64,000 bases of DNA from Candidatus Margulisiibacteriota bacterium (GCA_050250935.1 JBFWNS010000001.1:18331-82330), one strand, 5' to 3'. Counted from the first letter of the stretch, positions 20,701 to 52,872 are shown. Numbers and translations are program-made. The notes: generated from the letters alone by a model not told the origin.

Positions 20701-20717
20701 GTATGTGAAGGAGGTAA

Positions 20718-24950: not shown

Positions 24951-24969
24951 TAAAATATAATTGATTCCT

Positions 24970-25758: not shown

Positions 25759-25806
25759 AATCCCGCCAGTATCTAAGACCTTAAAATCAACCAACAATGT
25801 CTCGGT

Positions 25807-29730: not shown

Positions 29731-29742
29731 GAGGCAAAAACG

Positions 29743-30736: not shown

Positions 30737-30740
30737 GTCC

Positions 30741-32905: not shown

Positions 32906-33243
32906 TGCCTGGAATGAACGCTATTACCGGAAAACACTTAACCGGGATCGATCACCTTCGGCAATCCATCGTCGATATCCTCACAACTCCCATCGGCACG
33001 AGAGTCATGCAGCGGGATTATGGCAGCCGTCTGTACCAACTGGTCGACAATCCCATCAATGCCACCACACTGATTCAGATTTACGGCGCAGCAGTTGAAG
33101 CCCTTTCGATATGGGAGCCCCGTTTTGTTGTGGATCGTGTACAAGCTGAATCAGCAGAACCAGGGAGTGTGGTTCTTTCCCTAACCGGCCAATATCTCCC
33201 CGATGGTCGGGAAATTAAAATCGATGGAATAGAGGTGACCTAA
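32905..33243 (+). CDS. Baseplate wedge protein (gpW/gp25)
   Basis: HLRQSIVDILTTPIGTRVMQRDYGS, WEPR. Confidence 0.92.
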   Translation: MPGMNAITGKHLTGIDHLRQSIVDILTTPIGTRVMQRDYGSRLYQLVDNPINATTLIQIYGAAVEALSIWEPRFVVDRVQAESAEPGSVVLSLTGQYLPDGREIKIDGIEVT

Positions 33244-34836: not shown

Positions 34837-34848
34837 GAGGAAAAAATA

Positions 34849-36759: not shown

Positions 36760-36825
36760 TGCGGAAATTTAGCCAGTGTGAACCGGACATCAGAATTCAT
36801 AAAATATTAAGGAGGTAGATTCAAA

Positions 36826-38250: not shown

Positions 38251-38753
38251 GCGCACGAGACGTACTGAAAAATTTTCATTTGATGATTGACGGGCGTGGA
38301 TATGCCGGTCAAGTTGAAGAATACACACCGCCGGTTTTGAACCTGCAAGTCGAAGACTTTAGAGGAGGAGGAATGGACTCCCCCGTATCCGTCACAATGG
38401 GTATGGAGAAGCTTGAAACAAGTTTTTCTCTTGTATCCTATGACCAATACGTTTTGGCATTGTGGGGCGTTCAGCAAGGCAAAGAAATTCCGATGACTGT
38501 AAAGGGTGCTTTGGAATCCTATGACGGGACGGTCAAAGGCGTTACCCATTCAATGCGCGGTAAAATCCGGTCAATGGATTCGGGTACTTGGCAAGCCGGG
38601 CAAAAGCCTTCCTTAAAGATCACAATGGACCTGAATTACTACAAGCTTGAACATAGCGGCCAAGTGATTCACGAAGTAGATGTTATCAACATGGTCCGAA
38701 CCATTAACGGTATCGATGTGTTGGCCGAAACGAGAGGGGTATTAGGGTTATGA
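38247..38753 (+). CDS. Tail tube protein (FII-like)
   Basis: FRGGGMD, YYKL, DVINM motifs. Confidence 0.92.
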
Positions 38754-39001
38754 AGAATTTTAAGGATATTGAGCTTTCAAGTCCGATTGAAATTGATGGC
38801 ACTGAGATTGCTGCATTAAGAATGCGTGAACCGACGGTTGCCGACCAATTGGCTGCCGACGCGGTCAAAGGCGGGGACTCCGCAAAAGAAGTGAATCTGT
38901 TTGCAAATCTTTGTGAAATCACCCCAGACACAATCAAACGGCTAACCCTAAAAGATTATAAGAAGGTGCAAGAAGCCTTCGTTTTTTTTACCTCGGATTA
39001 A
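38750..39001 (+). CDS. Tail assembly chaperone (gpE-like)
   Basis: LRMREPTVAD, LFANLC, DYKKVQ; T8 run near the 3' end. Confidence 0.85.
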   Translation: MKNFKDIELSSPIEIDGTEIAALRMREPTVADQLAADAVKGGDSAKEVNLFANLCEITPDTIKRLTLKDYKKVQEAFVFFTSD

Positions 39002-39129
39002 CCTCCGAAAGTATCCGTGACGGCGTGCTCAGTATTGCTTTTCATACCGGATGGAGCAAAGCGGAAATCATGGCCATGCCGTGCTCGGAATTTATGTTTT
39101 GGATAGAGGGGCTGCCGAAGAATGGCTAA
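38750..39129 (+). CDS. gpE+E' extended chaperone by -1 frameshift
   Basis: -1 frame after T8 (38982-38989) reads YLGLTSESIRDGVLSIAFHTGWSKAEIMAMPCSEFMFWIEGLPKNG. Confidence 0.78.
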
Positions 39130-41515
39130 CAAAAAACTCAGCGCAGTTATTACCATCGGAGGGGCTGTTGCCTCGACCTTTGGGACAGCAATTAAAAGCA
39201 CCACGGGCCGAATCAAAGAAATCGGCAAGACAGTCCGTTCCCTTGAAAAAGACCATAAGGCACTCGGTAGCCAAATTGAGATTTGGGAAAAGCAAGGTAA
39301 AAATGTTGCCTCACTCCGCACTCAATATGTCAAATTAGGATCGGAAATAGACCGTCTCCGACTCAAGCAAAGTGCCCTAAAAAGAATCGTTGATGCTGAT
39401 GTGGCTGGATCTTTCACCAGGATGGGATCCACAATTAAAAGCACAGCGTTGATGTTCACTGGCCTCGCTACAGCGGCTATCGGCGGTATTTTTGCCATTG
39501 CAAAATCAACCTCAGACCTTGGCGACGAAATCGGAGAAACAGCCCAAAAACTTGGCATTGGTACGCAAGAACTTCAGGAACTTCGATATGCAGCATTAAA
39601 AGCCGGTGGCCAGGAAGTCGAACAGTTCGACAAGTCCATGGAGCTTATGATTAAGAATGTGACCGAAGCTGCAAACGGTACGGGCAAGGCAGTAAGTGCA
39701 TTGGAAGAACTGGGGCTTCAGGCCGGAGCTTTGGCTTCTATGACCCCGGATGAAATGCTCAATCATATCGCAGACGCAATGGGCAAAGTAGAAAACCATT
39801 CCGAAAAATTGAGGCTTGCTCTCCGGATATTCGGTAAAGGCGGAGCCCCAATGTTGTTGATGTTGGATCAGGGCAGCAAAGGGTTGGCGGAGTTTAGAAG
39901 GCAAGCCAGAGCAACCGGCTTCGTTCTGAGCGACCAAGCTATCCGTGCAGCCAGCGATTTTGATGACCAGCTTCGGGATCTGAAGCTTAGTGCTCTTGGG
40001 GTACGAAATACCTTAGGAGCTGCTTTGATGCCCGTGGTCACCAGAGTAATGGGTCGCATGACAACGTATCTCCAAAGTAATCGTGGAGAGGTAGTCAGGT
40101 TTGCCAATCAGTTTGCCGCAGCAGTCGAACGTGCAGCACCCACATTATTCAAGTTGGCCGACGGTGTTTTACAGTTTGCTAAGTTTTCGTCCATCGTTAT
40201 TGGCAAAGTTGCTCACATGGTAGGTGGATTTGAAAATCTTGGATTTATCATTGGAGCTGCTTTTAGTGCAAAATCCATCTTTTCGGTAATAAGTTTTGGT
40301 GGAGCTCTGTTGAAGGCGGCAGATGGTCTCCAAATGTTCTTTACAGGAAAATCGGCCATCGTCGGTTTATCCAAGGGATTTCAGTTTCTAGGAAAAGGCA
40401 TACTGTCTTTGGTGAAGAATATATTTCCACTCCTTCTTTCAGGCATTCGGGCCATTGGAGTAGCAGCGACGGCCAATCCAGTTGGTGCAATCATTGCCGG
40501 AGTTGCCATCGCAGCAATCCTAATCATCGCAAACTGGAAGCGGGTTAAACCTTTCTTTGAGTCACTATGGGCTTCTCTTAAGCCTATCTTTGCAGGTGCT
40601 TGGGCTGTAATTAAAACCGTAGCAGAATACACACCGCTAGGGATCCTGATAAAAAACTGGAAGCCTATAGTTGGTTTCTTTTCTGCACTGTGGCTAAAGG
40701 TTAAATCCGTAGCACGAACCGGCATCAACTTGGTTTTCAAGGTGTTGGACATTTCTCCATTGGAAGTATTGAGAGCCGCCTGGTCAGGGATAACCGCATT
40801 TTTTGGAAGTGTTTGGGACAAGGTTAAATCTGGAGCCGATTCGATGTCGGCCAAAGTTAAATCCATTTTTGGGTTTTCACCTGTGGGTTTACTCAAATCC
40901 TCATGGGCTGGCATTACCGGTTTCTTTGACTCAACCAAGGACAGCATTGCAACCAAGCTATCAAGCCTTGGCGAAGCATTAAAAACATCACCTCTGGCTA
41001 ACTTTTCGCCTGACTGGGCCAAACTTAAAACCAAGTTTGAGGGTATTTGGAACAGCATCAAAAACGTACTGAGTCAGATCACAGATGGCATAAAGAAAGC
41101 GTTCGAATTTAAGCCGCTGGCCGAAATCAAGAAAGTCTGGGAAGAAACCTTCAAGTGGTTGGAAGACAAAGCCACTCTCATTGGAACAGTCTTTGGGAAA
41201 GTGTCCCGGTTTTTTGGGTTTGGAGAAAAAGACGATGATGCAGATCTGGCAAAACCAAAGGCAACCATCCCGCTCAAATCGCCACTCAAAGTGAAATTGC
41301 CGACTGCTTCAAATTCGGATAATACGGCTATTCCAAAGTTGCAGGCCGGATCCACGTCGATATCCAAGCAGTTCACCAATACATTCAATATCACCGTAAA
41401 TGCTAGCTCCGGCCAGGATGAACAATCCATCGCCCGAAAGGTGATGGATCTCATTATTGCTCAACAACAAAAAGCCCAAGGTTCCTTGATGTTTGACGGA
41501 GCGGGGGCCTACTGA
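39122..41515 (+). CDS. Tape measure protein
   Basis: 797 aa Ala/Gly-rich with Trp/Phe periodic repeats, ANPVG; follows the chaperones. Confidence 0.9.
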   Translation: MANKKLSAVITIGGAVASTFGTAIKSTTGRIKEIGKTVRSLEKDHKALGSQIEIWEKQGKNVASLRTQYVKLGSEIDRLRLKQSALKRIVDADVAGSFTRMGSTIKSTALMFTGLATAAIGGIFAIAKSTSDLGDEIGETAQKLGIGTQELQELRYAALKAGGQEVEQFDKSMELMIKNVTEAANGTGKAVSALEELGLQAGALASMTPDEMLNHIADAMGKVENHSEKLRLALRIFGKGGAPMLLMLDQGSKGLAEFRRQARATGFVLSDQAIRAASDFDDQLRDLKLSALGVRNTLGAALMPVVTRVMGRMTTYLQSNRGEVVRFANQFAAAVERAAPTLFKLADGVLQFAKFSSIVIGKVAHMVGGFENLGFIIGAAFSAKSIFSVISFGGALLKAADGLQMFFTGKSAIVGLSKGFQFLGKGILSLVKNIFPLLLSGIRAIGVAATANPVGAIIAGVAIAAILIIANWKRVKPFFESLWASLKPIFAGAWAVIKTVAEYTPLGILIKNWKPIVGFFSALWLKVKSVARTGINLVFKVLDISPLEVLRAAWSGITAFFGSVWDKVKSGADSMSAKVKSIFGFSPVGLLKSSWAGITGFFDSTKDSIATKLSSLGEALKTSPLANFSPDWAKLKTKFEGIWNSIKNVLSQITDGIKKAFEFKPLAEIKKVWEETFKWLEDKATLIGTVFGKVSRFFGFGEKDDDADLAKPKATIPLKSPLKVKLPTASNSDNTAIPKLQAGSTSISKQFTNTFNITVNASSGQDEQSIARKVMDLIIAQQQKAQGSLMFDGAGAY

Positions 41516-41955
41516 TGGATATCATGATGATGATCGGCACCTTTATTTTTAGCGTAGATACCGCTTCCTACCAGCAATTTTCCAGGGCAACTGAATACCG
41601 ATGGAGAAGCCAGGAGCGAGTCAATGCCATAGAGGCATTGCAGTTTATCGGCGAAGGATCTGATGTCGTCACGTTTGTTGGCACCATTTATACCGAATAC
41701 AAGGGAGGAGTTGGACAGCTCACAGTTATGAGGGGCATCGCCGGAAATGGGAAGCCGCTTGTTTTGATTGATGGTCGTGGATTTGTTCACGGGCTATGGG
41801 TCATCGAAAAGGTTGAGGAAAACGTTGAAGCCTTCTTTGGACAAGGTGTGCCGCGCCGTCAAAGGTTTACGATGCAGATCCGCAAATATGGCGACAACAA
41901 AGCCATCCTCAAAAATGGGATTGTAGAATCCGTTATCGGAAGGAGCCTTCCATGA
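41515..41955 (+). CDS. Tail protein U (P2 gpU-like)
   Basis: FIFSVDTASYQ, LQFIG, GLWVIE. Confidence 0.85.
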   Translation: MDIMMMIGTFIFSVDTASYQQFSRATEYRWRSQERVNAIEALQFIGEGSDVVTFVGTIYTEYKGGVGQLTVMRGIAGNGKPLVLIDGRGFVHGLWVIEKVEENVEAFFGQGVPRRQRFTMQIRKYGDNKAILKNGIVESVIGRSLP

Positions 41956-42164
41956 CGGCAACCTATGTCAGTAAGTCCGGCGACGTCGTGGATGAGATTG
42001 TAAAGTCCTACTACGGAACTTTAAAGGGCCGAATGGTAGAACAGGTTTTGGATGCCAACCCCGGATTAGCTGACTACGGGCCTACACTCCCTTATGGTAT
42101 CAGCATTGTCCTGCCGGATATTCAAACCCCGGTACAGGAGGCCAGTATCCGTTTATGGGATTAA
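41952..42164 (+). CDS. Tail protein X (LysM-like)
   Basis: GDVVDEI...YYG...VLDANPGLA...IRLWD. Confidence 0.88.
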   Translation: MTATYVSKSGDVVDEIVKSYYGTLKGRMVEQVLDANPGLADYGPTLPYGISIVLPDIQTPVQEASIRLWD

Positions 42165-43222
42165 TCAATATCACCCCAACCATCCGGATTGAAGCCAACA
42201 ACAAAGACATCACCGACATAATCAAGGAGCGGTTTGTATCCCTAAAGATTACGGATGAATCCGAGTATCAGTCAGATATTGCCGAAATAACCCTGGCCGA
42301 CCACAAGCCGGATGCCAGAATCAAAATGCCGCCAACCGGTGCTGAACTTCGAATTTGGGTTGGCTATGACGAAAAAGCCACCGATATGGGGCTCTGGATT
42401 GTCGATGAAATCCGTCTTGCGGGTCCGCCGGATTCAATGACTCTGGTTGCCCGAGCAGCACCGTTTATGAAAAGCATGAAAGGCAGGCTTGCCTTAACCT
42501 CTCATCGAAACCGCACGTGGCCGGCAGGAACCACCATTGGCGGGATGGTCAAAAAGATGGCTGATAAAAGTAAGCTGGAAGCTAAAGTGTCATCGACAAT
42601 GGCGGGAATAGTGCTTCCACACATTGCTCAAATCAACCAGTCAGACCTAGACCTACTTACTAAACTCATACCCAAATATTTCGGGATTGCCACGGTTAAA
42701 AACGGTGCCATTGTTGTTACCAGTTTGGCCGAATCAAAAACAGGCTTAACCAACTCGGAAATCCCACCCATCACGTTGGTTCCTTCAGACGTCACTTCCT
42801 ATCAGACTTCCGTTAAAAGCCGTGGGCAGTATGGAAAGGTAATTGCGAAATACCGGGACTATAAAACATCGACTGACAAGCAGGTTGTCGTTGGGGATGA
42901 AGAACCAGTCTTGAGGCTACCATTTACCTTGCCAAATATGGACTCTGCCTATAATTCGGCCAAAGCCAAATATATGAATGGTAAGCGGGGTCTTCAGGAG
43001 GTTTCTTTAACCTTGCCAGGACGGACCGATATCTTTGCTGAAAGACGATTGGTTTTGACCGGATTCCGGGACGAATTAAGCGGTGAATGGAAAATAAAAC
43101 GGGTCGAACACCAGATCGATCAGGGTGGATATTCCTGCTCTGTAACCCTGGCCGTGAATATAACAAATGAGGACATACCGCCAGTATCCGAATCTGACGA
43201 AAGCGAAGACGATGAAGAGTAA
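42155..43222 (+). CDS. Baseplate hub / late control protein D
   Basis: GPPD, QINQSDLDLL, GEWKIKRVEH. Confidence 0.85.
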   Translation: MGLINITPTIRIEANNKDITDIIKERFVSLKITDESEYQSDIAEITLADHKPDARIKMPPTGAELRIWVGYDEKATDMGLWIVDEIRLAGPPDSMTLVARAAPFMKSMKGRLALTSHRNRTWPAGTTIGGMVKKMADKSKLEAKVSSTMAGIVLPHIAQINQSDLDLLTKLIPKYFGIATVKNGAIVVTSLAESKTGLTNSEIPPITLVPSDVTSYQTSVKSRGQYGKVIAKYRDYKTSTDKQVVVGDEEPVLRLPFTLPNMDSAYNSAKAKYMNGKRGLQEVSLTLPGRTDIFAERRLVLTGFRDELSGEWKIKRVEHQIDQGGYSCSVTLAVNITNEDIPPVSESDESEDDEE

Positions 43223-43497
43223 TGGAACTCATAACACTCTTAAAAGAAGTCCGAGACCCCGCAGTCTTTTTGTTCTGCGTCGCAATTGTTTTCTATCTCA
43301 ACCGTAACTATGTAAGCAAGGAAACCTACCGGGAAAACTTTGATTCTTTGAAAAAAGAGCTTGAAGCCATTCGTGATGACTATGTTTCCAAAGAAAAGTT
43401 GGCCGACGTGTTAAAGCCTGTTGAGGACCAGCTAAAAAGTATTGGCCGTGAGATTGGTGAAATAAAAAAGTTCATCGTCGATGTCATCAAAAAATAA
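43222..43497 (+). CDS. Single-TM coiled-coil protein in lysis cassette (holin candidate)
   Basis: One hydrophobic helix then coiled coil; precedes the endolysin. Confidence 0.5.
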   Translation: MELITLLKEVRDPAVFLFCVAIVFYLNRNYVSKETYRENFDSLKKELEAIRDDYVSKEKLADVLKPVEDQLKSIGREIGEIKKFIVDVIKK

Positions 43498-43509
43498 GGA
43501 GGCCGTATC

Positions 43510-43962
43510 TTGGATTTGAATCAAAAATTGAGTGAGCACTTCCAACTTTGGGAGTTTGTTACTTCTCAAGTTGCTCAGCGTAACGGCATCAACAACAACC
43601 CAACTCCCGAAGTTATCCAATGCCTAAAAAAGCTCTGTGAAACAGTTTTGGAACCTGCCAGGTTTGCCTTGGGGCCGTTGCGTATTTCATCCGGGTACAG
43701 ATGTCCGGCTTTGAACAAAGCTGTAGGAGGGGCGGCAACCAGTGCCCATCAATTTGGGTTTGCAGCGGATGTTTTGCCACTCAAAGTAAGCAAGCTGGAA
43801 TTTGCCAAGTGGATCGTTAAAAACGTGCCGTTTGACCAAATTATTTTGGAGTATGGAACAGAAGCCGATCCTGCTTGGATTCACGTTAGTGCGGATCCTC
43901 GTCATCGCAAAAAAGTGATGCGGATTTTAAACGGAACCGGTTATCAAAAAATCAACCTATAG
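43510..43962 (+). CDS. Endolysin, peptidase M15A family
   Basis: LSEHFQLWEF, ISSGYRCPALN, SAHQFGFAAD, WIHVS. Confidence 0.9.
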   Translation: MDLNQKLSEHFQLWEFVTSQVAQRNGINNNPTPEVIQCLKKLCETVLEPARFALGPLRISSGYRCPALNKAVGGAATSAHQFGFAADVLPLKVSKLEFAKWIVKNVPFDQIILEYGTEADPAWIHVSADPRHRKKVMRILNGTGYQKINL

Positions 43963-43971
43963 GAGGAAATA

Positions 43972-44349
43972 ATGGATATTTTAGGTGCAGTTGGAAATGT
44001 ATTCGGTGGTGTCGGTAAGCAAGTGGTTATTTGGACCATCGGTGGGGCCATTTCACTTTTTGTTGTCAATGAAATCCGCAAGTTTCTGAACGAAATCAAG
44101 GACCACATCATTCGTAAGGTAAAGGGGGAAGTGGCTAATATTGAAGACGAAAACCTTCGAGAAGCTGCACGGCATGTTGTACGGTATGTGGCCGGAAGGT
44201 TTCCGGATATTTCCGGAGACGCAAAGCTCCAAATGGCTATCAAGCAGCTTCAGGACATTACTCCAGACATCTTGGTTTCGGACGACAAATTAAAAGTACT
44301 CATCGAATCAGCTTACAGTGACTTCAAACAAGAGCTAAAAAGTGTTTAA
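43972..44349 (+). CDS. Putative holin (LL-H-like)
   Basis: N-terminal TM, GDAKL and LIESA motifs; follows the endolysin. Confidence 0.55.
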   Translation: MDILGAVGNVFGGVGKQVVIWTIGGAISLFVVNEIRKFLNEIKDHIIRKVKGEVANIEDENLREAARHVVRYVAGRFPDISGDAKLQMAIKQLQDITPDILVSDDKLKVLIESAYSDFKQELKSV

Positions 44350-44779
44350 ACGCTTTATCGTTTCACTGGCACTGATGGGGCTTTTTGCGGGATCCTTAAG
44401 TGCTGCCGAATTTCCCGAAACCTTTTTAGAAATAAGCCCGGAGCTATCATATGGCGTTCACGATAACGGCCCGGCCTGGATTGAACTGGTTCCACTAAGA
44501 GGCGGCTGGCAAGCCACAAAGCAAACTGCCGTAAAAGCGGGCTTCAGCTATGCCTACGAAATTGACCGTGATAAAAAGCCCTTTGGAACTCCCAATCATT
44601 ACGGTTGGAGAATTTCAGCACGATTGGAGCATGCCTTTGTTCCTAGTAGTGATATGAGGTTTTTTTATGAGGTGAACGTGGGCGAGAAAGTTGACGGCTC
44701 AAGGAATGAGATTAACTACCTTCAAACGATGAATTATCAGCGGTTTGGGCTTGTTTGGAGGCTTTGGAAGGTTATTTAG
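44342..44779 (+). CDS. Exported protein, possibly a small beta-barrel
   Basis: Signal peptide; alternating aromatic strands; ends FGLVWRLWKVI. Confidence 0.55.
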   Translation: MFKRFIVSLALMGLFAGSLSAAEFPETFLEISPELSYGVHDNGPAWIELVPLRGGWQATKQTAVKAGFSYAYEIDRDKKPFGTPNHYGWRISARLEHAFVPSSDMRFFYEVNVGEKVDGSRNEINYLQTMNYQRFGLVWRLWKVI

Positions 44780-44824
44780 CTGAGTGGTTTTACAGTACCA
44801 CTTTATTGCCACTATAATCTTTAA

Positions 44825-45505
44825 ATGACCTACAGTTTTTGGGGAAAGTTTTTTAGAAAAGATTTAAAGCTGAGTGATAGATGGTGGCACAGACTTTTAT
44901 CAGTTAGTTTCCTTATTTTTGTAGTATGGTTTTTCTTCTATTTAGCACCTCGTCCTGAAACAAGATGGATTCAGGCGGAAAAATTTTCCAACAGAATAAC
45001 ATCCGACATTAAGCCAATTGAATCATTATTAAAGCAGAATGAAAGACTTGGAGATAAAAACGAAGAGCTTTATGGAAATGACTCCTCCATGGATGCCTAT
45101 TCTAAAGATACTTATTATTCAAATAATCTTCAGGCCACTTACAAGCAAATTATGATTGAGCGAAACATCCACAATCTGTATATCTATGATCACAATAGTG
45201 CGCCGGACAGAATCGAAGTTACCTCTGAAAAATTTTTAGACTACATTCAAAAAAATAATATAAAAGGGTTAGCGATAGACAGCTTTAGCTTTGAAGATGG
45301 CCATAAACTGTATTTCTTACAGGTTCCAACTATGGAACCTTATCAAGATTACTTTGTTTATAAAAAATCTTTATTCAAGACGGCGGTAGGATATGGCGGA
45401 ATCTTATGTATGGTATCAGGCATTACCTTAATTTTTTCTGCTTTGATTCTTACTGCATATTATAAGGTTATTCTTTACATAATATTTGGATCTAGGAAAG
45501 AATAA
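44825..45505 (+). CDS. AT-rich two-TM membrane moron protein
   Basis: Own TATAAT (44813-44818); TM segments at both ends; last gene before attR. Confidence 0.65.
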   Translation: MTYSFWGKFFRKDLKLSDRWWHRLLSVSFLIFVVWFFFYLAPRPETRWIQAEKFSNRITSDIKPIESLLKQNERLGDKNEELYGNDSSMDAYSKDTYYSNNLQATYKQIMIERNIHNLYIYDHNSAPDRIEVTSEKFLDYIQKNNIKGLAIDSFSFEDGHKLYFLQVPTMEPYQDYFVYKKSLFKTAVGYGGILCMVSGITLIFSALILTAYYKVILYIIFGSRKE

Positions 45506-45573
45506 ATTTTGTGACAAACATCAAGCCACCTTCAAAGCCTCCGAATACAAATTAAAGTAAAATAGCAGCCGAT

Positions 45574-45606
45574 TAGGAGCGTAAACCTGACCTAGTGGGC
45601 CCACCA
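45574..45606 (+). repeat. attR (site 1)
   Basis: TAGGAGC-10 nt-CCTAGTGGGCCCACCA; core identical to the tRNA 3' end. Confidence 0.92.
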
Positions 45607-45667
45607 GCGCTTTTTTGATACTTTTGAGGCTAAATTTAGTTCAAGTCCTAATGGGTTGGTAGCTGAT

Positions 45668-46114
45668 TTATCTTCCCTGTGTCGAGATTCTTGTGACCAA
45701 TAGCAGTTCTTCCAGCATTGGATGAATTAAATGGGGAGCCGGCATATACGGATTAGTAAAAAACTTATACCTCAGAGCATGCGACGAATATTGTGAACTT
45801 AATCCCTTAACTATTGTTTGTGTTTCATCTGTAATCAGAATGTCTTTTTTTTGCAATTCGCCCAAGAGCGCTTTTAAGTTGTGGCGATAATCATATTTTT
45901 TAAGATTTCTTTCTTCCCATCCTCTTTTTAGGAGAGCCGCTTTTAAAAATAATTCTACCGCCTGTGATACTAAAAAATAGAAAGGAATAGCCGTTAATTT
46001 TGCTGGAGATCCATCTTCGCGTTTTTCCATAGTGTTTTCTAGTTTTTTAGCGCTTTCCCAGAAATTTACAGCAACTAATCTATAGGTGGATGCTAAGACA
46101 ATACTATCTTCCAC
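45668..46114 (-). CDS. HEPN-like protein
   Basis: FLVSQAVELFLKAAL, RHNLKAL, ALRY pattern typical of HEPN folds. Confidence 0.55.
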   Translation of the reverse strand: MEDSIVLASTYRLVAVNFWESAKKLENTMEKREDGSPAKLTAIPFYFLVSQAVELFLKAALLKRGWEERNLKKYDYRHNLKALLGELQKKDILITDETQTIVKGLSSQYSSHALRYKFFTNPYMPAPHLIHPMLEELLLVTRISTQGR

Positions 46115-46116
46115 TG

Positions 46117-46941
46117 CTAATCCAAAAATTTCTGACTACCCGAAGAAATTACACCCAGCCGCCTTAACTGATCCATAGCCAGTTGCCTTAATTTCTGAAA
46201 CCGCTCTTCCTTGCTTTTTCTTTCAACTATCAAAATCGAATTGTAGCTTTCCAAATTTGCCAAAATCACAAGCTGTGTCGCAGTAGCTTCATCCCTCATA
46301 TTTGCAACCCCATCTAAAATTGCTTTGGGATTTTCATCTCGCCACTGTTTAGCGGTTTTTCCAAAAAGTGCAACATTGATAATGTCGGCTTCCTCCGCAT
46401 AAATAAGCCATTCCTGATTTTTAGGAATGTTGGGCAACAGATGCTCTTTGACCGCATCCGTATGTAGTTTGTAATTCACTTTGCTTAAAAAGCGTTTAAC
46501 ATCCCATCCTTCTTGAAGCCGTTGTTGCTCTTGTTCTTTGAGTCGTTGAAACTCTTTGATAATAAGGAGCTTAAATTCTGGACTTAACCAAGCACCAAAC
46601 TCAAAAGCGATATCCTTGTGTGCAAAAGTGCCACCATATCGACCGGCCTTAGCTTGCAGGCCAACGGCATTAGTTTTATCAATCCATTTTTTAACTGAAA
46701 TTGTGAATCGATTTGTACCCGCTTCATTTCTAATTCCCCCGAATTCGGGGGAATTAAAATCAGGGTTGTTCAGTTCTTCCCAAACGCCTAAAAACTCAAT
46801 GGTATTTTTGTTAATCAGCCACTTTTCGATGAGCCTGCTGCCATCCTCGTAGGAAGACGTCATATCTGTTAAAGAGACAAAATCCATGCCGTTTTGTGTT
46901 AAAACTGATATTTTTGACCCTTTAACTTCAATTTTGGGCAT
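46117..46941 (-). CDS. KilA-N domain protein
   Basis: VSLTDM, TIEFLGVWE, GRYGGTFAHKDIAFEF, LSKVNYKLHTDA. Confidence 0.9.
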   Translation of the reverse strand: MPKIEVKGSKISVLTQNGMDFVSLTDMTSSYEDGSRLIEKWLINKNTIEFLGVWEELNNPDFNSPEFGGIRNEAGTNRFTISVKKWIDKTNAVGLQAKAGRYGGTFAHKDIAFEFGAWLSPEFKLLIIKEFQRLKEQEQQRLQEGWDVKRFLSKVNYKLHTDAVKEHLLPNIPKNQEWLIYAEEADIINVALFGKTAKQWRDENPKAILDGVANMRDEATATQLVILANLESYNSILIVERKSKEERFQKLRQLAMDQLRRLGVISSGSQKFLD

Positions 46942-47080
46942 AAATCCATATCTCCTTTAAAAAGTTTCCCTATTTTAACCTACACCCACTTTGCATCCAA
47001 TACGAAAAGGTTCGATAAATACCCCTTAAGCAGCCTTTAAAGCCACCCATTCCAAGAAGAAGTCCATCATTTCGATGAAA

Positions 47081-47123
47081 TTTTCGTGCGTAGGAGCGTC
47101 CTGGTGCCCAATTGGGCCCACCA
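47081..47123 (+). repeat. att-like site 2
   Basis: TTTTCGTGCGTAGGAGC-10 nt-CCAATTGGGCCCACCA (core 14/16 to the tRNA end). Confidence 0.85.
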
Positions 47124-47300
47124 GCCTTCGCAATAAAATGGCGATCTGCACGATTTTCGCTGCGGTCACATATTTGCAATATGTTCCCTCTGCGAGAAAT
47201 CGCACATCTCATCCATTTTATTTGCGAATGCCTCTGCTTCGGATTTATTTGCAAAAATTGCGCCGATTGTTGCCTTCGAAGCAACTCCCTACGCGAGTTT

Positions 47301-47843
47301 TTACGAATCTGACGCACTCTCGAAGCTCGATTCCTCAAGGCCTTTAATCACAAGGAAATCTTTCCATGCATCTATGCATTTGTTGCACAAATCAAATATG
47401 TCAAATTTTACAATTTCCTTTGTGTCAGGGTTTTCAAATGCCGCTCTATATTTGATTGGACTTCCTTTTGTCTCGAAATAATCATATTCACGATACCAAT
47501 TAAAGTCTGAATCTAATGGCCTTCGATCTATTTTTTTGTGTTTATATCCATTTGCAATATCTCGACAAAATCGAAGCTCAATATTCTGAGAAAATAGATT
47601 GTCTATATCAATTTTGAAATCTGGATAGGAATTTAAAAGATAATCTTTAACATGGAAGCAATTCTGAAAAAATGCAATAAGTTCGTCGTCGTCGAAATTA
47701 GACAATTCCGAATTCTTTGACTTATTGGCTAAAATTTGAACTCGACTATACCACCTTAATACTCGATTCCATTGAATGCGCCATTGATCTTTCTCTTCAA
47801 TTGTAACGGGACTTAATGCACTCCCACCGAACCATTGCGGCAT
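47301..47843 (-). CDS. Hypothetical protein, possibly HEPN-like
   Basis: FFQNCFHVKDY and CRDIANGYKH; coupled to the antitoxin gene. Confidence 0.55.
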   Translation of the reverse strand: MPQWFGGSALSPVTIEEKDQWRIQWNRVLRWYSRVQILANKSKNSELSNFDDDELIAFFQNCFHVKDYLLNSYPDFKIDIDNLFSQNIELRFCRDIANGYKHKKIDRRPLDSDFNWYREYDYFETKGSPIKYRAAFENPDTKEIVKFDIFDLCNKCIDAWKDFLVIKGLEESSFESASDS

Positions 47844-48124
47844 TACCCAATTCTCACAAGCTCAGTTCCCAAGGCTTTTGACACCTTAAAGATTGTCGAT
47901 AGTTTTACATCTTGTGGATGCCTCTCCAACCGAGAAATTGCTTGTTTTTTAGTATGAATTAACTCTGCTAACTGTGATTGAGTAAGACCTTTTTCTTTCC
48001 GGGTCTTTCGAATCAATTCACCCAAGACTTCAAGCTTAAAGTCTTCATATTCATCGTCAAATTTTTCAAATGTTTTGGGGTGTTTCTTTTTTTGTTCTTC
48101 AAGGTAATTACGAAATGTGGCCAT
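47843..48124 (-). CDS. XRE-family HTH antitoxin (HigA-like)
   Basis: RKEKGLTQSQLAE...ISRLE HTH, downstream of a RelE-like gene. Confidence 0.85.
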   Translation of the reverse strand: MATFRNYLEEQKKKHPKTFEKFDDEYEDFKLEVLGELIRKTRKEKGLTQSQLAELIHTKKQAISRLERHPQDVKLSTIFKVSKALGTELVRIG

Positions 48125-48129
48125 GGTTG

Positions 48130-48489
48130 TTACCTCCTACTTAGATAATCGTTTTTGTAATTTTCCGCAATTTCAATCTCATTTTGCGGTGTTTTTTGCG
48201 ATTTCTTTTGAAATCCGTTTGTCAAAATAACCAACTTCCCTTTGTGCATAAATCCCAAAAACCGATAAATGTTGGACTCGTATTCAATCCGCGCTTCCCA
48301 AAGTCCATTTGAACCTGTCATTTTTTGCCAATATTTCGAAGGAACAATCTGGAGCTCTTCAATTAGACTGAATACAAATAATATCTTTTTACGAACCTTT
48401 AGTGGTAATTCATCTAGATAATCTTTAACAGGAACTTTTCCCGAAGATTTTTTGTAAAATTCGATGATTCGATGCCGGTTCTCTGTCAT
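48130..48489 (-). CDS. RelE/HigB-like (Gp49-type) toxin
   Basis: GKVPVKDYL, GLWEAR, LTNGFQKKSQKTP...EIEIA. Confidence 0.88.
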   Translation of the reverse strand: MTENRHRIIEFYKKSSGKVPVKDYLDELPLKVRKKILFVFSLIEELQIVPSKYWQKMTGSNGLWEARIEYESNIYRFLGFMHKGKLVILTNGFQKKSQKTPQNEIEIAENYKNDYLSRR

Positions 48490-48668
48490 TTGTATTTCCC
48501 AGTTACGATCAATTGTAAACATGAGAGTTGACTTTTTTCAAGTGTCGCTTGTGATGCCAAATTGGCAATATGTACCATCCAAAATAGGTTCGAGAAACGC
48601 CCCTAAGCTGCCTTCAAACCCGACCATTCCCAGAAAAATCCCAGAAAAATCCCAGCAAAATCCCAATG

Positions 48669-48711
48669 TTTTCGTGCGTAGGAGCAGAACAGTAACCAAT
48701 TGGCCCCACCA
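48669..48711 (+). repeat. att-like site 3
   Basis: TTTTCGTGCGTAGGAGC-10 nt-CCAATTGGCCCCACCA (core 13/16). Confidence 0.83.
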
Positions 48712-48790
48712 TCTTGAATATGTCCAAAAAATTAATAATTATGGACACGTTTTATTGACATGTCCATGCCATACACATATTCTATTGGAT

Positions 48791-49870
48791 ATGCACATTA
48801 ATTCAGAAACACCCTATAATGAGCTTCCGCTACTTCCACTTCAGCAGTCTTTTGAGACAATACCAGTGATGCAAGCGGCTATTCGAGCGAATAGGGCGTT
48901 AGCTGAGCTCAAAGGAATTGCTCAAACGATTCCAAACCAAAGTATCTTTATCAATACAATCAGCCTTAAAGAAGCACAATATAGCTCTGAAATCGAAAAT
49001 ATTATTACAACAACAGATGAGCTGTATCAGGCGTTTTCTGTTTCAGACGGGAAGATGACACAATCGGCAAAAGAAGTTTTGCAATATCGCAATGCGTTAT
49101 GGCAAGGATTTTCTCAGCTCAAAAAACGTGGAATCTTAACCACATCTGTAATGAATGAAATTCAGGCAACACTTTTAGATAATAACGCAGGAATTCGGTC
49201 TTTACCTGGAACAGCACTAAAAAATGCTATTACAGGTAAAATTATATATACACCTCCGGTAGGCAAAGATGTCATCTTGGATAAGTTGAAAAACTTGGAA
49301 ACTTACATCCATTCTGAAACAGTTGATCCGTTGATTAAAATGGCCATTATGCACTATCAATTTGAGTCTATTCACCCATATTATGATGGCAATGGTCGTA
49401 CGGGACGGATTTTAAATGTTCTCTACCTTATTTATGAAGGCTTGTTAGATCAGCCTATTCTTTATCTCAGCCATTACATTATTCAACACAAAGAAGAGTA
49501 CTACCGCTTATTGCAAAATTGTACTTTTAAGGAAGATTATGAGCCTTGGATTTTGTATATGCTCAGAGGTGTTGAAGAGTCAGCAAAGGAATCGATTTCG
49601 AAAATAAAATCGATCCAGCTTCTTATGCAGGAGACAATGGCAATTATCAAAGAAAAACTGCCTAAAATTTATTCAAAAGAACTTGTGGAGGTTCTTTTTC
49701 AGCAACCATACTGCAAAATCAAATTCCTTGAAGATTATGGCTTAGCAAAAAGAAAAACAGCTTCTGAATATCTTTATCAGCTTGAGGCTATTGGTGTTTT
49801 AGAATCCAAAAAAATTGGACGGGAAACGTTGTTTTTGAATGTGCGGTTGTTTGAGTTGTTTAGAGGATAG
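48791..49870 (+). CDS. Fic family protein adenylyltransferase
   Basis: HPYYDGNGRTGR Fic motif, SSEIEN inhibitory motif; TTGACA-17-TATTCT promoter just upstream. Confidence 0.92.
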   Translation: MHINSETPYNELPLLPLQQSFETIPVMQAAIRANRALAELKGIAQTIPNQSIFINTISLKEAQYSSEIENIITTTDELYQAFSVSDGKMTQSAKEVLQYRNALWQGFSQLKKRGILTTSVMNEIQATLLDNNAGIRSLPGTALKNAITGKIIYTPPVGKDVILDKLKNLETYIHSETVDPLIKMAIMHYQFESIHPYYDGNGRTGRILNVLYLIYEGLLDQPILYLSHYIIQHKEEYYRLLQNCTFKEDYEPWILYMLRGVEESAKESISKIKSIQLLMQETMAIIKEKLPKIYSKELVEVLFQQPYCKIKFLEDYGLAKRKTASEYLYQLEAIGVLESKKIGRETLFLNVRLFELFRG

Positions 49871-49893
49871 GCTATGTGTGTAGCCCTAGGATT

Positions 49894-49936
49894 TTTTCGT
49901 ACGTAAGAGCAGAACCGTAACCTATTAGCCCCACCA
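49894..49936 (+). repeat. att-like site 4 (outermost)
   Basis: TTTTCGTACGTAAGAGC-10 nt-CCTATTAGCCCCACCA (core 13/16); core-genome genes resume beyond it. Confidence 0.78.
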
Positions 49937-50180: not shown

Positions 50181-51152
50181 TTAATCTTGCGTATACGCCT
50201 TTAAATCGGACCTGCCGGACTTGTCTTTGAGGCGTTGGAGGGCTCGGCTTTCGATTTGGCGGATGCGTTCTCGGGTGAGGTTGAATTGTTTGCTGATTTG
50301 ATCGAGGGTTTGAGGGGGGTGATTGTCGAAGCCGAAGCGCCGTTTGAGCACCTCTTGTTCGCGGTCGGGCAACTCGGTTAGAACTTGTCGCAAGGTCTCT
50401 TTCATGAGGGTTTGCATGGCCGCTTCTTCGGGTTGTGGATGCTGGTCGTCTTCCACCACATCGCCCAACACATAGCCGTCTTCCGAGCCGATGGGTAAAT
50501 CGATGGACAAGGGCAGTTCTGCAACCTTTAAAATTTCGTGAACCCGCTTGAGTTCCATGCCCGATTTGGCCGCAATTTCTTCTTCGGTTGGGGTTCGGCT
50601 GAGCTCTTGCACCAGCTGGCGAGAGATCATGCGCAGGCGGTTGATGGCCTCGACCATGTGCACCGAAACGCGGATGGTTCGCCCTTGATCGGCCAGCGCT
50701 CTGGACATGGCTTGGCGAATCCACCACATGGCATAGGTGCTGAACTTAAACCCTTTTTTATAATCAAATTTTTCGACGGCCCGAATCAGGCCAATGTTGC
50801 CTTCTTGAATCAGATCCAAAAAGGGCAAACCCCGACCCACAAACCGCTTGGCCACACTGACCACCAAGCGCAGATTCGCCAAAATCAGTTGATGCTTGGC
50901 CTCCAGATCGCCGGCTTCGATTTGCTTGGCCAGGACAATTTCTTGGTCGCGGTCCAACAGGGGAATCCGACCAATTTCGCGTAAATACACTTTAACCGAA
51001 TCTTCAGTGACAATCGAAGTTGGAACTTCGAGGGCATTTTCGGCTTCCGCATCGGCGGCTGCATCGTCTAGGGTATCGGGTTCCTCCTCAAAAAAAGCGT
51101 CTTCAATCGAATGTTCGATGCGCGGATCAAGCGGTTTATTGGGCTCCACCAT
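50181..51152 (-). CDS. rpoD: Primary sigma-70 factor (short form)
   Basis: [54 protein letters not shown]; downstream of dnaG. Confidence 0.88.
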
Positions 51153-52872
51153 GACTCTCCTTCCTCAATAAGGACTGCAATTCGGTCAAAAGCGCATTGA
51201 TTTCGGGTTCTTGTCCGGGGAGCTTCTCGAGCTCCGCCACGCGGGATTTTAGGGTTTCAATACGACGTTGGGCTCGGGTTTCTTCAAACAACTTCAGACA
51301 GGCTTCGATCTGAAAACCGTCATGAGCGGCCATCATCACCCGTCCCATTTTCTGTTTTAACTGCGGATCGGTCAATGATCCCAAAAACGCCTGATCGACC
51401 AAATCGGACTTGGCCAACTGCTCGGCCAGCTCGCGGTGATCGGGAACAGTAAACGCTTCGCTGCGCCACTGGGTAAAAAAGTGGGTTCTTAAATTCAGAT
51501 CGCCCACCAAGCCCGCCAACACGGTTTCTTCGGCTTTGTCGAATTTGTTTTTTTGGGGTTGAACACGGTTTGGCGTTGGGGCACCGGAAACCGGGGTTGT
51601 CATGCGCAAGCGATCCAAAATCCATTCCGGCTCGACATTAAGGGTTTTGGCCATGTGGCGAATGTAGTATTTTTGGACCACATCGTCGGTTTCGGCCTTT
51701 AACAATGGGGCCATGAGCCGCAAAATATCGGCGGCATATTCGATGCGTTTGCCCGGGTATTTTTGCAGCAACCGCTCGAACATGACCTCGATGATGGATT
51801 TCGGAGATTCGACCAAGGCCCGGTAGGCGGCTTCGCCTTGTTCGGTGAGCACATCGGCAGGGTCTTTTTCGGGCAAAGCCAACACGAACACTTTAAGCTC
51901 TTGTTGGCGCAACACCTCGAAACTGCGCTCGACAGCCCGTTGCCCAGCCTCATCGCTATCGAAACCCAACACCACGGTTTGGGTGAAGCGTTTGAGGCGA
52001 ATGGCGTGTTCGTTCGTCAAGGCTGTGCCCAGGGTGGCAACGGTGTTTTTGAATCCAAATTGGTGAGAGACCATCACGTCCATATAGCCTTCGACGACGA
52101 TGGCCTTGTCTTGGGCTTTGATGGCTTGTTTGGCCAAATCAAGACCGTACAACACGCGGCGTTTGTTAAACAGCAGGGTCTCTTCGGAATTGATGTATTT
52201 TGCCGCCGATTCTGAAGGCTGAACCAACCGCCCCCCAAACCCCACCAACCGACTGCGCTCGTCGTGGACGGGGAACATCAGGCGTCCCCGAAACCGGCAA
52301 ACCCAATCGCCCCGCTCGGTTTTGAAAAACAACCCCGACTTGGCCAAGAGTTCTTGGGCATAGCCTTTTCCCAGCAAGATCTGATTTAAATCGAGGTTCG
52401 GCGGGCAATAGCCGATGTGAAATTCGGCCAAAGACAGCTCCGTTAGACCCCTTTTTTTGGCATAGTCTTCGGCCAAAGAGCCCGGAAAATGCTGCTTAAA
52501 CCATTCCCGACACACCACCAAAAGGTCTTGAATGGCCCCGCGGTCTTTGTCATCTTGGGATTCGAAGGTTGTTTTTTCGTCTTCTTCGATGGGAATGCCA
52601 GCCTTGGTGGCAATTTGGCGAATGGCATCGGTAAAGGACAGGTTTTCGATTTTCATGATGAAGGTGATGTGGTCCCCAGACTCTTGGCACCCAAAACAAT
52701 GAAACAGCTTTTTTTCGGCACTAACAGTAAACGATGGGCTGCGCTCGGAATGAAACGGACAAAGCCCCAAATGGTTACGCCCCCGCTTGCGCAGCGAGAC
52801 ATAATCGCCAATAATTTGGACAATGTCTGGGATGTTTCGAACTTGTTCTACGGTTGTTTTTGAAAGTGCCAT
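51136..52872 (-). CDS. dnaG: DNA primase
   Basis: CPFHSE zinc finger, FGGR, KYINS, VEGYMDV, FDSDEAG Toprim motifs. Confidence 0.97.

What the first reader, a model, noticed from the sequence alone, without database searches (positions are those of the whole stretch)
45521..45606. Integration swaps the recombinase C-terminus: attP form ends in a degron-like tail
Seen: the recombinase ORF runs through the att core. In the prophage it ends VGPLG-LEPRTNRL (tRNA antisense). Rejoining attP in silico gives VGPLG-QVYAPNRLLFYFNLYSEALKVA (stop at 45521). In the same frame, site 2 encodes VGPIG-HQDAPTHENFIEMMDFFLEWVALKAA (stop 47026) and site 3 VGPIG-YCSAPTHENIGILLGFFWEWSGLKAA (stop 48603, once an 11-bp duplication is removed). 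Known: ClpXP recognises C-terminal LAA/LVA-type tags, and mycobacteriophage BPs removes an ssrA-like tag from its repressor by integration. Inference: conservation of LK(A/V)A across otherwise divergent tails suggests the excised-form recombinase is unstable and the integrated form stable, a possible directionality or copy-control switch.
Basis: partly seen in the sequence, partly recalled or inferred. Interest (0 to 1): 0.85.

Follow-up and report, generated by a model that had tools for sequence, protein, structure and literature searches.

The report
Integration rewrites a phage recombinase's tail
A prophage's serine recombinase gene runs across its own attachment site, so the free phage makes a longer enzyme ending in an alanine-rich, degradation-tag-like tail that integration into a tRNA gene replaces, and the same pattern recurs across a large family of such enzymes.

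Summary
A 36-kb tailed prophage (window 9254-45606) sits in tRNA-Met. Its large serine recombinase ORF (9210-10694, minus strand) crosses the 16-bp att core. The integrated gene ends VGPLG-LEPRTNRL (494 aa). Rejoining the prophage ends gives a 508-aa form ending ...EALKVA.

Natural homologues carry this joined form: P0003 ends ...EELKAA and P0004 ...EQLNAA. Three fossil att sites lie downstream, not two.

- Of 240 homologues, 28 of 80 with extended non-tRNA tails end in Ala and 13 in Ala-Ala. The other 160 give 15 and 1.
- In viral contigs, 26 of 49 ORFs that do not end on a tRNA finish in Ala, against 1 of 9 that do.
- Three blind reconstructions of the free-phage junction (attP) in other genomes ended NVA, NAA and NVA.
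- The host tmRNA tag ends AQAA, and clpX and clpP are present.

So a selected C-terminal Ala on the free-phage isoform is well supported. That it is a proteolysis tag remains an inference. I rate it a new variant of integration-dependent tag removal, known for the BPs repressor.

The parts
9177..9253 (+). tRNA-Met (anticodon CAT), the integration target. Its 3' end is rebuilt by phage sequence.
   Evidence: ARAGORN; sequence
9238..9253 (.). attL copy of the 16-bp att core cctagtgggcccacca. The crossover probably lies in the GGGCCC palindrome.
   Evidence: identical block; dyad centred on GGG|CCC, 13 of 26 ungapped matches; 83 of 10,000 random window positions reach that
9210..10694 (-). Large serine recombinase, integrated isoform, 494 aa, ending VGPLG-LEPRTNRL (tRNA antisense).
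   Evidence: Pfam Resolvase + Recombinase + Zn_ribbon_recom; fold of homologue P0003 matches full-length serine integrase-DNA complexes
9254..45590 (.). Prophage body of about 36.3 kb. It holds a replication initiator, ParB-methyltransferase, large terminase, portal, major head protein, baseplate, tail fibre, sheath, tape measure and endolysin.
   Evidence: PHROGs; Pfam
45521..45590 (-). Coding sequence of the free-phage (attP-form) tail QVYAPNRLLFYFNLYSEALKVA plus stop. In the prophage it is separated from the recombinase gene by the whole phage.
   Evidence: homologous tails are contiguous with the recombinase in P0003 and P0004
45591..45606 (.). attR copy of the 16-bp att core.
45607..45667 (-). 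Remnant of the 3' end of an older recombinase gene (...KFSLKSIKKALVGPLG), which is the P' arm of decayed element 2.
   Evidence: compared by eye with the P0003/P0001 C-termini (inference)
45668..46941 (-). Cargo of decayed element 2: a HEPN-domain ORF (45668-46114) and a KilA-N-domain ORF (46117-46941).
   Evidence: Pfam
47026..47124 (-). Fossil att site 2 with an intact tail frame, VGPIG-HQDAPTHENFIEMMDFFLEWVALKAA*.
47301..48522 (-). Cargo of decayed element 3: an unknown ORF (47301-47843), an HTH_3 ORF (47843-48124) and a Gp49/HigB-like ORF (48130-48522).
   Evidence: Pfam
48603..48712 (-). Fossil att site 3. The tail frame ...GFFWEWSGLKAA* is broken by an extra 11-nt unit of a tandem repeat (48619-48662).
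48713..49870 (+). Cargo of decayed element 4: a Fic-family gene (Fic_N, Fic, SoFic-like_C). The listed ORF starts at 48464, but the true start was not determined.
   Evidence: Pfam
49872..49936 (-). Its tail is truncated to VVGLIGYGSALTYEKILGLHT*.
50181..52872 (-). Chromosomal flank: rpoD-like sigma-70 (50181-51152) and dnaG primase (51136-52872). This marks the end of the accreted array.
   Evidence: Pfam

Best explanation
The element is a temperate tailed phage whose large serine recombinase gene contains the phage attachment site in its last codons.

In the free or circular genome the gene encodes a 508-aa enzyme. Its final 22 residues form a predicted helix ending ...LKVA and are encoded at the opposite end of the prophage map. 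Recombination with the 3' end of tRNA-Met cuts the gene inside the codons for VGP. The lysogen therefore makes a 494-aa enzyme ending in eight residues read from the tRNA antisense strand.

I propose that the free-form tail is an ssrA-like C-terminal degradation tag, most likely read by ClpXP. The isoform that performs integration would then be short-lived. The isoform made from the prophage, which must perform excision, would lack the tag.

Shown:
- the ORF crosses the att core, giving two isoforms;
- homologous joined forms exist in nature;
- a terminal Ala or Ala-Ala is selectively kept on free-form tails across the family.

Inferred:
- proteolysis, the protease involved and the regulatory consequence.
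For: 1. Anatomy.

2. The joined form exists. P0003 (65% identical, 509 aa) ends VGQIGQDYAPKVIRHYFKLYVEELKAA and P0004 ends ...HYYNIYCEQLNAA. Both are homologous residue by residue to the window tail. P0006 ends ...RLKKAA.

3. Family-wide contrast. I classed 240 homologues of at least 440 aa with a rule of my own.
- 80 extended non-tRNA tails: 28 end in A, 13 in AA.
- 125 tRNA-antisense tails: 11 end in A, 0 in AA.
- 35 short stops: 4 end in A, 1 in AA.
- Host background from 1,279 ORFs: P(A) 0.081, P(AA) 0.0047.
- Binomial p 1.3e-11 and 1.3e-16; Fisher p 2.4e-6 and 3.2e-6.

4. Viral contigs, classed objectively with ARAGORN. Of 74 complete ORF ends:
- 49 have no tRNA and at least 300 nt of contig beyond the stop; 26 end in A and 7 in AA.
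- 9 end on a tRNA or tmRNA; 1 ends in A.

5. Blind attP reconstructions. All 3 recoverable cases end in A...FEEWDNVA...WQALPNAA and ...ETLLNVA.

6. The constraint is at protein level.
- Tail length beyond the core varies from about 12 to 35 residues, yet the last residue stays Ala.
- The three window tails use TGA, TAA and TAG at the same relative place.
- Differences in the last five codons of sites 2 and 3 are synonymous or stop changes.
- Most of the tail lies outside the roughly 20-bp P half-site suggested by the dyad.

7. Host side.
- The tmRNA tags end ...ASAQAA (window host)...LALAA and ...PQAIAA (two other hosts).
- clpX and clpP are adjacent in the host genome.

8. Precedent. The BPs repressor loses a C-terminal degradation tag on integration, and BPs Int is itself tagged (PMC3694055, passages read).
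Against: - No degradation data exist, and the host is an uncultured MAG.
- The window's own tail ends VA, not AA. That ...LVA-type ends are good ClpXP tags is recalled from the E. coli literature and was not tested here.
- AlphaFold2 models the tail of P0003 as a helix (residues 485-508) with pLDDT 73-82. It may dock on the enzyme rather than hang free. I could not inspect contacts.
- A sizeable minority of extended tails do not end in Ala, for example ...INGF...RAVI...PVFV...FKNAV...LKKAE.
- My 'extended' class is noisy. It includes truncated ORFs and some undetected tRNA tails.
- Relatives are not independent, so the p-values overstate.
- For 7 of 12 other integrated elements no second junction was found, so the reconstruction sample is small.
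- Serine integrases need a directionality factor for excision. A stability switch is therefore not obviously required for directionality.
Confidence: 0.5

Rival explanations
1. The tail is a working part of the integration isoform rather than a degron. It would be a C-terminal helix that tunes recombinase activity, for example by favouring attP x attB synapsis or by blocking binding of the directionality factor or attL x attR activity. Integration would then convert an 'integrase' isoform into an 'excisionase-competent' isoform.
For: - The tail is predicted helical at moderate confidence, directly after the last beta-hairpin and helix of the C-terminal domain.
- Its hydrophobic pattern is conserved between the window, P0003 and P0004 (Y-A-P ... 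Y-F-x-L-Y-x-E-x-L-K). A second tail type keeps L-R-T-x-L ... H-S ... I ... A-L-x-A.
- The two isoforms are strictly tied to the two reaction directions by gene topology.
Against: - A docking helix does not explain why the very last residue is Ala across tails of different length and otherwise unrelated sequence.
- Integrated isoforms carry arbitrary tRNA-encoded ends of 3 to 30 residues and must still excise, so the region tolerates anything.
Confidence: 0.25
2. The tail recruits the ClpX unfoldase to take apart the very stable post-integration recombinase-DNA complex. ClpX does this for MuA transposase through its C-terminus (recalled knowledge). On this view the tail does not set the steady-state level of the protein.
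For: - The same sequence evidence for a ClpX-type C-terminal signal applies.
- clpX is present.
- Only the isoform that ends up bound to attL/attR after integration carries the signal.
Against: - No evidence here separates remodelling from degradation.
- Serine integrase product complexes are not known to me to need a host unfoldase.
Confidence: 0.12
3. The tail has no protein-level function. The ORF simply reads through attP until a stop appears. The resemblance among tails would reflect common descent plus DNA-level constraints, such as the attP arm or a terminator for the convergent gene.
For: - Sites 2-4 are fossils of related elements and share some DNA similarity even beyond the stop codon.
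- The first six or so tail codons overlap the presumed P half-site.
Against: - Terminal Ala is enriched across representatives clustered at 50% identity, in several phyla, and with varied tail lengths.
- 0 of 125 tRNA-encoded ends finish in AA.
- Three different stop codons occur at the same place, and the changes in the last codons are synonymous.
- Tail identity between the window and P0003 is about 12 of 22 residues by my count, against 65% for the whole protein.
Confidence: 0.08

Closest known systems
Integration-dependent immunity of mycobacteriophage BPs and relatives
   Same: attP lies inside an ORF, so integration swaps the protein's C-terminus and removes a C-terminal degradation tag. 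The integrase of these phages is also C-terminally tagged and responds to host proteases such as ClpXP (PMC3694055, passages read).
   Different: In BPs the ORF crossed by attP is the repressor, the recombinase is a tyrosine integrase that works in both directions alone, and its own tag is not removed by integration. Here the crossed ORF is the recombinase itself, it is a large serine recombinase, and the target is a tRNA 3' end.
SSV-type 'suicidal' tyrosine integrases of archaeal viruses and plasmids
   Same: The attachment site lies within the recombinase's own gene, so integration alters that gene (PMC8371274, passages read).
   Different: Those genes are split into two inactive halves. [quoted passage not shown] Here the enzyme is bacterial and serine-type, only the last 22 codons are exchanged, and the catalytic and DNA-binding domains stay intact.
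Canonical large serine integrases (Bxb1, phiC31, SPbeta, Listeria A118/LI)
   Same: Same domain set (resolvase catalytic domain, recombinase domain, zinc ribbon, long coiled coil) and same overall fold. The att sites are short and dyad-like around a central crossover.
   Different: I found no description of an attP inside the coding sequence, or of a tRNA-antisense C-terminus, for these enzymes. Their directionality is attributed to the coiled coil and a directionality factor (abstracts listed).
KplE1/HK620-type prophages, where attL overlaps the integrase promoter
   Same: Integration at a tRNA gene places the recombination site over a control element of the integrase gene, so the integration state feeds back on integrase (PMC2951348, passages read).
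   Different: There the overlap is with the promoter at the 5' end and control is transcriptional, in a tyrosine integrase. Here the overlap is with the 3' coding end and the proposed control is post-translational.
tmRNA (ssrA) tag and ssrA-like C-terminal degrons
   Same: The tail has a non-polar C-terminus ending in A-A or V-A. Host tmRNA tags end AQAA, LALAA and AIAA.
   Different: The tail is genetically encoded rather than added by trans-translation. Residues upstream of the last two differ from the host tag. Recognition by any protease is untested.

Membership tests
Large serine recombinase (serine integrase) | N-terminal resolvase-type catalytic domain with the nucleophilic serine in the R-V-S-S motif | tested here: met
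   PF00239 E 1.8e-24 over residues 3-152. R8, V9 and S10 are invariant in 13 relatives.
Large serine recombinase (serine integrase) | Recombinase domain plus zinc-ribbon domain, with an inserted long coiled coil | tested here: met
   PF07508 and PF13408 hits. The AlphaFold2 model of homologue P0003 has helices 334-381 and 387-438. Foldseek top hits are full-length serine integrase-DNA complexes, with 9dxh_A at E 4.7e-21.
Large serine recombinase (serine integrase) | Short att sites with a central crossover, and a mobile element flanked by attL and attR | tested here: met
   A 16-bp identical core lies at both prophage ends. The reconstructed attP shows a dyad around GGG|CCC. Recombination itself was not assayed.
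Integration-dependent immunity system (BPs type) | attP located inside the repressor gene | tested here: not met
   The ORF crossed by the att core is the recombinase. The HTH genes upstream (11289-11711) are not crossed.
Integration-dependent immunity system (BPs type) | Integration removes a C-terminal degradation tag from the crossed protein | tested here: inconclusive
   The C-terminus is exchanged and the lost end is Ala-terminal and conserved. That it is a degradation tag was not testable.
Integration-dependent immunity system (BPs type) | Tyrosine integrase acting in both directions without a directionality factor | tested here: not met
   The enzyme is a serine recombinase.
ssrA-like ClpXP degron | Free C-terminus ending in small non-polar residues of the L-A-A / L-V-A type | tested here: met
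   The window tail ends LKVA. Fossil tails end LKAA. Homologues end LKAA, LNAA, KKAA, ALVA, ALCA, SLAA, LVAA and so on. The motif definition is recalled, not taken from a call.
ssrA-like ClpXP degron | ClpXP present in the host | tested here: met
   clpX scores 575.6 bits and clpP 300.8 bits, adjacent on contig C1.
ssrA-like ClpXP degron | The tag shortens protein half-life in a ClpXP-dependent way and is abolished by AA-to-DD | not testable with these tools
   Needs reporter or in vitro degradation assays.
SSV-type suicidal integrase | Integration splits the integrase gene into inactive parts; tyrosine recombinase; archaeal | tested here: not met
   All three Pfam domains remain in the integrated 494-aa ORF. 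The enzyme is serine-type and the host is bacterial (tmRNA, rpoD, dnaG).

The most novel reading that the evidence does not exclude
A whole, widespread family of bacterial large serine recombinases writes the integration state of the element into the recombinase's own C-terminus. These enzymes target the 3' ends of many different tRNA genes and of tmRNA, in Margulisbacteria-like, Planctomycetota, Patescibacteria and deltaproteobacterial MAGs and in many uncultured phages. Free elements would make a tagged, short-lived 'integration' isoform. Integrated elements would make an untagged 'excision' isoform. That would be a built-in, protease-read commitment and directionality device, working alongside or instead of a directionality factor. 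It would also be the first case of a bacterial recombinase whose att site lies inside its own gene.
Probability: 0.4. Interest if true: 0.85.

Novelty: new variant of a known kind. Interest (0 to 1): 0.75.

Why it matters
**Regulation.** If the tail is a degron, these phages couple recombinase stability to their own physical state with no extra regulator. That would be a new, very compact solution to the directionality and commitment problem for serine integrases. The same logic was thought special to the BPs-type repressor switch.

**Annotation.** Thousands of prophage 'integrase' ORFs in databases end in meaningless tRNA-antisense residues. The true free-phage protein can only be read after attP is reconstructed.

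**Genome engineering.** Serine integrases mined from prophages would be the untagged, chimeric isoform, while those mined from phage genomes may carry a destabilising tail. This could affect activity in heterologous hosts.

**att-site prediction.** The tRNA-antisense end and the Ala-terminal tail together give a sequence signature. It locates attL, attR and the crossover for this family without comparative genomes.

Tried and rejected
**Searches for free-phage forms**
- The search for related loci in viral contigs with P0001 alone and with the 13-sequence alignment A2 gave no relatives. The broader alignment A3 did.
- The cultured-phage collection held only distant recombinases of 27-30% identity (Bacillus and Anoxybacillus phages, fecal contigs). 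I did not use them.

**attR searches that failed**
- G003:C12: only a 19-nt match with 3 mismatches, inside another ORF, judged chance.
- G004:C160 and G005:C747: no junction repeat on fragmented contigs.
- G103:C12, G131:C4, G075:C2 and the window genome's second element at C2: no repeat of 10 nt or more at the junction.
- G137:C3 and G086:C6: no antisense tRNA at the ORF end.
- Metagenome records behind L024, L027 and L031 are not held, so they could not be extended.

**Sequencing runs**
- Three landfill-metagenome runs of one study were listed, all kept as contigs.
- One contig of the likely source run spans 43000-51500.
- No loose end or joint at any att site appeared among the 18 loose ends shown; 72 more were not shown.
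- This says nothing about excision, because contigs drop rare forms. No RNA holder was listed.

**Other**
- I considered reading sites 2-4 as an integron-like cassette array serviced by the phage recombinase. The remnants of recombinase 3' ends on their right flanks, and the truncation of site 4, fit serial integration and decay better. The cassette reading is not excluded.
- I considered a terminator or overlapping ORF in 45506-45590. No + strand ORF overlaps the tail. I did not run the terminator scan.
- Supplementary files of papers were closed and not consulted. Supplements of the large recombinase survey (PMC10083194) could list att sites overlapping recombinase genes. Its main text has 0 occurrences of 'tRNA' and of 'C-terminal'.

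Full report
**What is there**

The window holds a prophage of about 36.3 kb between 9254 and 45606.
- Its genes include a replication initiator, a ParB-methyltransferase, large terminase, portal, major head protein, baseplate, tail fibre, sheath, tape measure and endolysin (PHROGs).
- At its left end a 494-aa ORF (9210-10694, minus strand) carries the Resolvase, Recombinase and Zn_ribbon_recom domains of a large serine recombinase.
- The ORF runs out of the phage into the 3' end of tRNA-Met(CAT) at 9177-9253.
- A 16-bp block, cctagtgggcccacca, is present at 9238-9253 and at 45591-45606. These are the attL and attR cores.

**The observation**

- The integrated ORF ends ...NQDVVGPLG-LEPRTNRL.
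- The minus strand below the attR core reads ...VGPLG-QVYAPNRLLFYFNLYSEALKVA, with a stop at 45521.
- Joining the two ends by coordinates gives one ORF of 508 aa with that end.
- I add a fourth site at 49894-49936. Its tail is cut short (...YEKILGLHT*) next to a Fic gene.
- To the right of site 4 lie rpoD and dnaG, which is the chromosome.

The locus therefore reads as follows:
- tRNA-Met, then the prophage, then site 1;
- HEPN + KilA-N genes, then site 2;
- an unknown ORF + HTH + Gp49/HigB-like genes, then site 3;
- a Fic gene, then site 4, then the chromosome.

The right flank of site 1 still reads like the last codons of a recombinase (...KFSLKSIKKALVGPLG; compare). I read sites 2-4 as fossils of earlier, related elements that integrated serially at the same tRNA and decayed to their cargo genes. 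Their tails are samples of related attP tails, not sequences maintained in place.

**Where the crossover lies**

- Sites 2 and 3 differ from the tRNA to the left of gggcccacca (ccaatt against cctagt). The exchange point therefore lies in or to the right of GGGCCC.
- The reconstructed attP shows dyad symmetry about GGG|CCC, with CGTAAA boxes 20 and 21 nt out.
- It has 13 of 26 ungapped matches, and 83 of 10,000 random window positions reach that.
- On that reading the P half-site covers only the first six or so tail codons. The remaining 16 or so codons lie outside a minimal attP.

**Does the joined ORF exist in nature?**

Yes.
- Among 120 listed homologues (240 with E <= 0.001), P0003 (65-66% identical by the two searches; 509 aa) ends VGQIGQDYAPKVIRHYFKLYVEELKAA.
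- P0004 ends VGPIGQDLAPGIISHYYNIYCEQLNAA.
- These tails align residue by residue with the window's tail, which in the prophage lies 36 kb from the gene.
- In those contigs the gene is therefore in the free (attP) configuration.
- P0006 (51% identical) ends ...MQRLKKAA.
- P0002 (84% identical) is an integrated form ending ...VGPLGLEPRTCRL.

**The family**

- In 40 loci from genomes and metagenomes, 30 had a stop codon in the locus. In 18 of those 30 the ORF ended inside an antisense tRNA gene (Tyr, Leu, Gln, Arg, Val, Ser, Asn, Trp, Gly).
- In 80 viral contigs, 74 ORF ends were complete. Nine of them ended on a tRNA or tmRNA.
- This is a large family of serine recombinases that target tRNA 3' ends with the att core inside their own last codons.
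- In the window host's phylum, 30 of 146 species genomes have a match at E <= 1e-40, counting the window genome itself.
- The genome behind locus L001 is titled a Marinamargulisbacteria MAG and appears there as 'same phylum'. This suggests a Margulisbacteria-like host, which is an inference.

1. *Database proteins.* I classed 240 homologues of at least 440 aa, out of 265 gathered, by a written rule of my own.

| Class | n | end in Ala | end in Ala-Ala |
|---|---|---|---|
| tRNA-antisense motif in the last 40 residues | 125 | 11 | 0 |
| Stop within five residues of a Trp | 35 | 4 | 1 |
| The rest ('extended') | 80 | 28 | 13 |

   - The host background from 1,279 ORFs of at least 200 aa is 0.081 for Ala and 0.0047 for Ala-Ala.
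   - Binomial p is 1.3e-11 and 1.3e-16. Fisher p against the other two classes is 2.4e-6 and 3.2e-6.
   - The 'extended' class is noisy, because it contains truncated ORFs and some tRNA tails that my rule missed.
   - By eye, about 41 are clear long non-tRNA tails and about 28 of them end in Ala (notes).

2. *Viral contigs, classed with ARAGORN.*

| Class | n | end in Ala | end in Ala-Ala |
|---|---|---|---|
| No tRNA, at least 300 nt of contig beyond the stop | 49 | 26 | 7 |
| ORF ends on a tRNA or tmRNA | 9 | 1 | 0 |
| No tRNA, stop within 300 nt of the contig end | 16 | 3 | 0 |

   - Among the 29 closest relatives of the first class, 20 end in Ala.
   - Many are near-duplicates. I count about 17 distinct Ala-terminal tail types.

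3. *Blind reconstruction.* I tried 12 other integrated elements.
   - In three, a 10-14-nt junction repeat was found 30.2, 8.0 and 9.7 kb away.
   - The tails read in the recombinase frame end ...VFEEWDNVA...SIWQALPNAA and ...RLETLLNVA.
   - Two of the three are in what seems to be one genome.
   - Seven gave no repeat, and two had no tRNA at the ORF end.

Non-Ala ends exist, for example INGF, RAVI, PVFV, FKNAV and LKKAE. The rule is strong but not absolute.

**Protein-level or DNA-level constraint?**

- Tail length beyond the core varies from about 12 residues (...WWAIVDAIRMAQAA) to about 35, yet the last residue stays Ala.
- The three window tails use three different stop codons at the same relative place.
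- Sites 2 and 3 differ in their last five codons only by tta/ttg, gct/gca and taa/tag.
- A recurrent tail type in distant members ends Y-R-A-L-V-A, H-K-A-L-C-A, H-Q-A-L-R-A, Y-N-A-L-S-A or Y-H-S-L-A-A.
- This resembles the end of the E. coli ssrA tag as I recall it. That is a recalled resemblance, not a tool result.

**Host side**

- The host tmRNA tag is GKVHTFPGAAVYGHASAQAA.
- The hosts of two reconstructed elements have tags ending LALAA and AIAA.
- clpX and clpP are adjacent in the host genome.

**Structure**

- An AlphaFold2 model of P0003 built on an 80-sequence alignment has mean pLDDT 91.4.
- The tail (residues 485-508) is a helix with block pLDDT of 74, 82 and 73.
- The model matches full-length serine integrase-DNA complexes (9dxh_A at E 4.7e-21, then Bxb1, phiC31 and LI integrase).
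- I could not see whether the tail helix docks on the body. This keeps a structural or regulatory role alive.

**Mechanism proposed**

- The free genome encodes a tagged recombinase, and the prophage encodes an untagged one.
- Gene topology ties the tagged isoform to integration and the untagged isoform to excision.
- The most economical reading of an invariant C-terminal Ala is recognition of the free carboxy-terminus by a protease or unfoldase, most likely ClpXP.
- The integration enzyme would then be transient. The prophage-encoded enzyme would persist, ready for a directionality factor.
- Confidence is about 0.5. Variants are ClpX-driven disassembly of the product complex (0.12), a tail that tunes activity (0.25) and no function (0.08).

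**Comparison with what is known**

- BPs-type phages remove a degradation tag from the repressor by integration and tag their tyrosine integrase (PMC3694055, passages read).
- SSV-type archaeal integrases carry the att site in their own gene but are split and inactivated. The review states that such self-disrupting recombinases are exclusively archaeal (PMC8371274, passages read).
- KplE1-type prophages overlap attL with the integrase promoter (PMC2951348, passages read).
- Seven full-text searches found no description of a serine recombinase whose C-terminus is exchanged by integration.
- The main text of the large survey of serine recombinases does not mention tRNA or C-terminal features (PMC10083194). 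Supplements were closed.

**Verdict**

The comparative prediction holds across a large family. The degron reading is plausible but untested. I rate the finding a new variant of a known kind, with interest 0.75.

Noticed in passing
window 45607-49936: Three short segments of 1.2-1.6 kb lie between att-like sites, at start-to-start spacings of 1517, 1588 and 1225 nt. Each carries toxin-antitoxin or defence-type cargo (HEPN + KilA-N; unknown + HTH + Gp49/HigB-like; Fic). They look like serially integrated and decayed relatives of the prophage. A cassette-capture reading is not excluded.
   Followed up: partly
window 48619-48662: An 11-nt unit (CCAGAAAAATC on the + strand) is repeated about three times in tandem inside the fossil tail of site 3. 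One extra unit breaks the frame.
   Followed up: yes
window 48666-48778 and 49891-50003: The right flanks of sites 3 and 4 are 74% identical over 113 nt. They contain repeated ATGTCC/ATCGAC-like words, although the flank of site 4 should be chromosomal. This may be a binding-site array, or a sign that the array grew differently from simple serial integration.
   Followed up: no
own genome G000:C2:260093-261469 (-), beside the tmRNA gene at C2:259545-259924: A second recombinase of the same family (E 7e-50) reads into the 3' end of the tmRNA gene and ends ...NELWWR. So an element of this family sits in ssrA itself. No second junction was found within 30 kb.
   Followed up: partly
window 12644-15345 (-): A multicopper oxidase with a heavy-metal-binding domain (12644-13999) and a neighbouring 449-aa ORF lie inside the prophage near the recombinase end. 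They are probably phage cargo.
   Followed up: no
window 10691-11711 (-): Directly upstream of the recombinase, on the same strand, are an ORF6N-domain (antirepressor-like) gene and an HTH gene. They may be co-transcribed with it and are candidate regulators or a directionality factor.
   Followed up: no
loci L075, L094, L128 (viral contigs): In three viral contigs the family recombinase ends on an antisense tmRNA gene rather than a tRNA. The family's target range therefore includes ssrA.
   Followed up: no
window 21238-22608 (+): A ParB-like domain is fused to a DNA methyltransferase (PHROG 498, E 5.5e-168) in the prophage.
   Followed up: no
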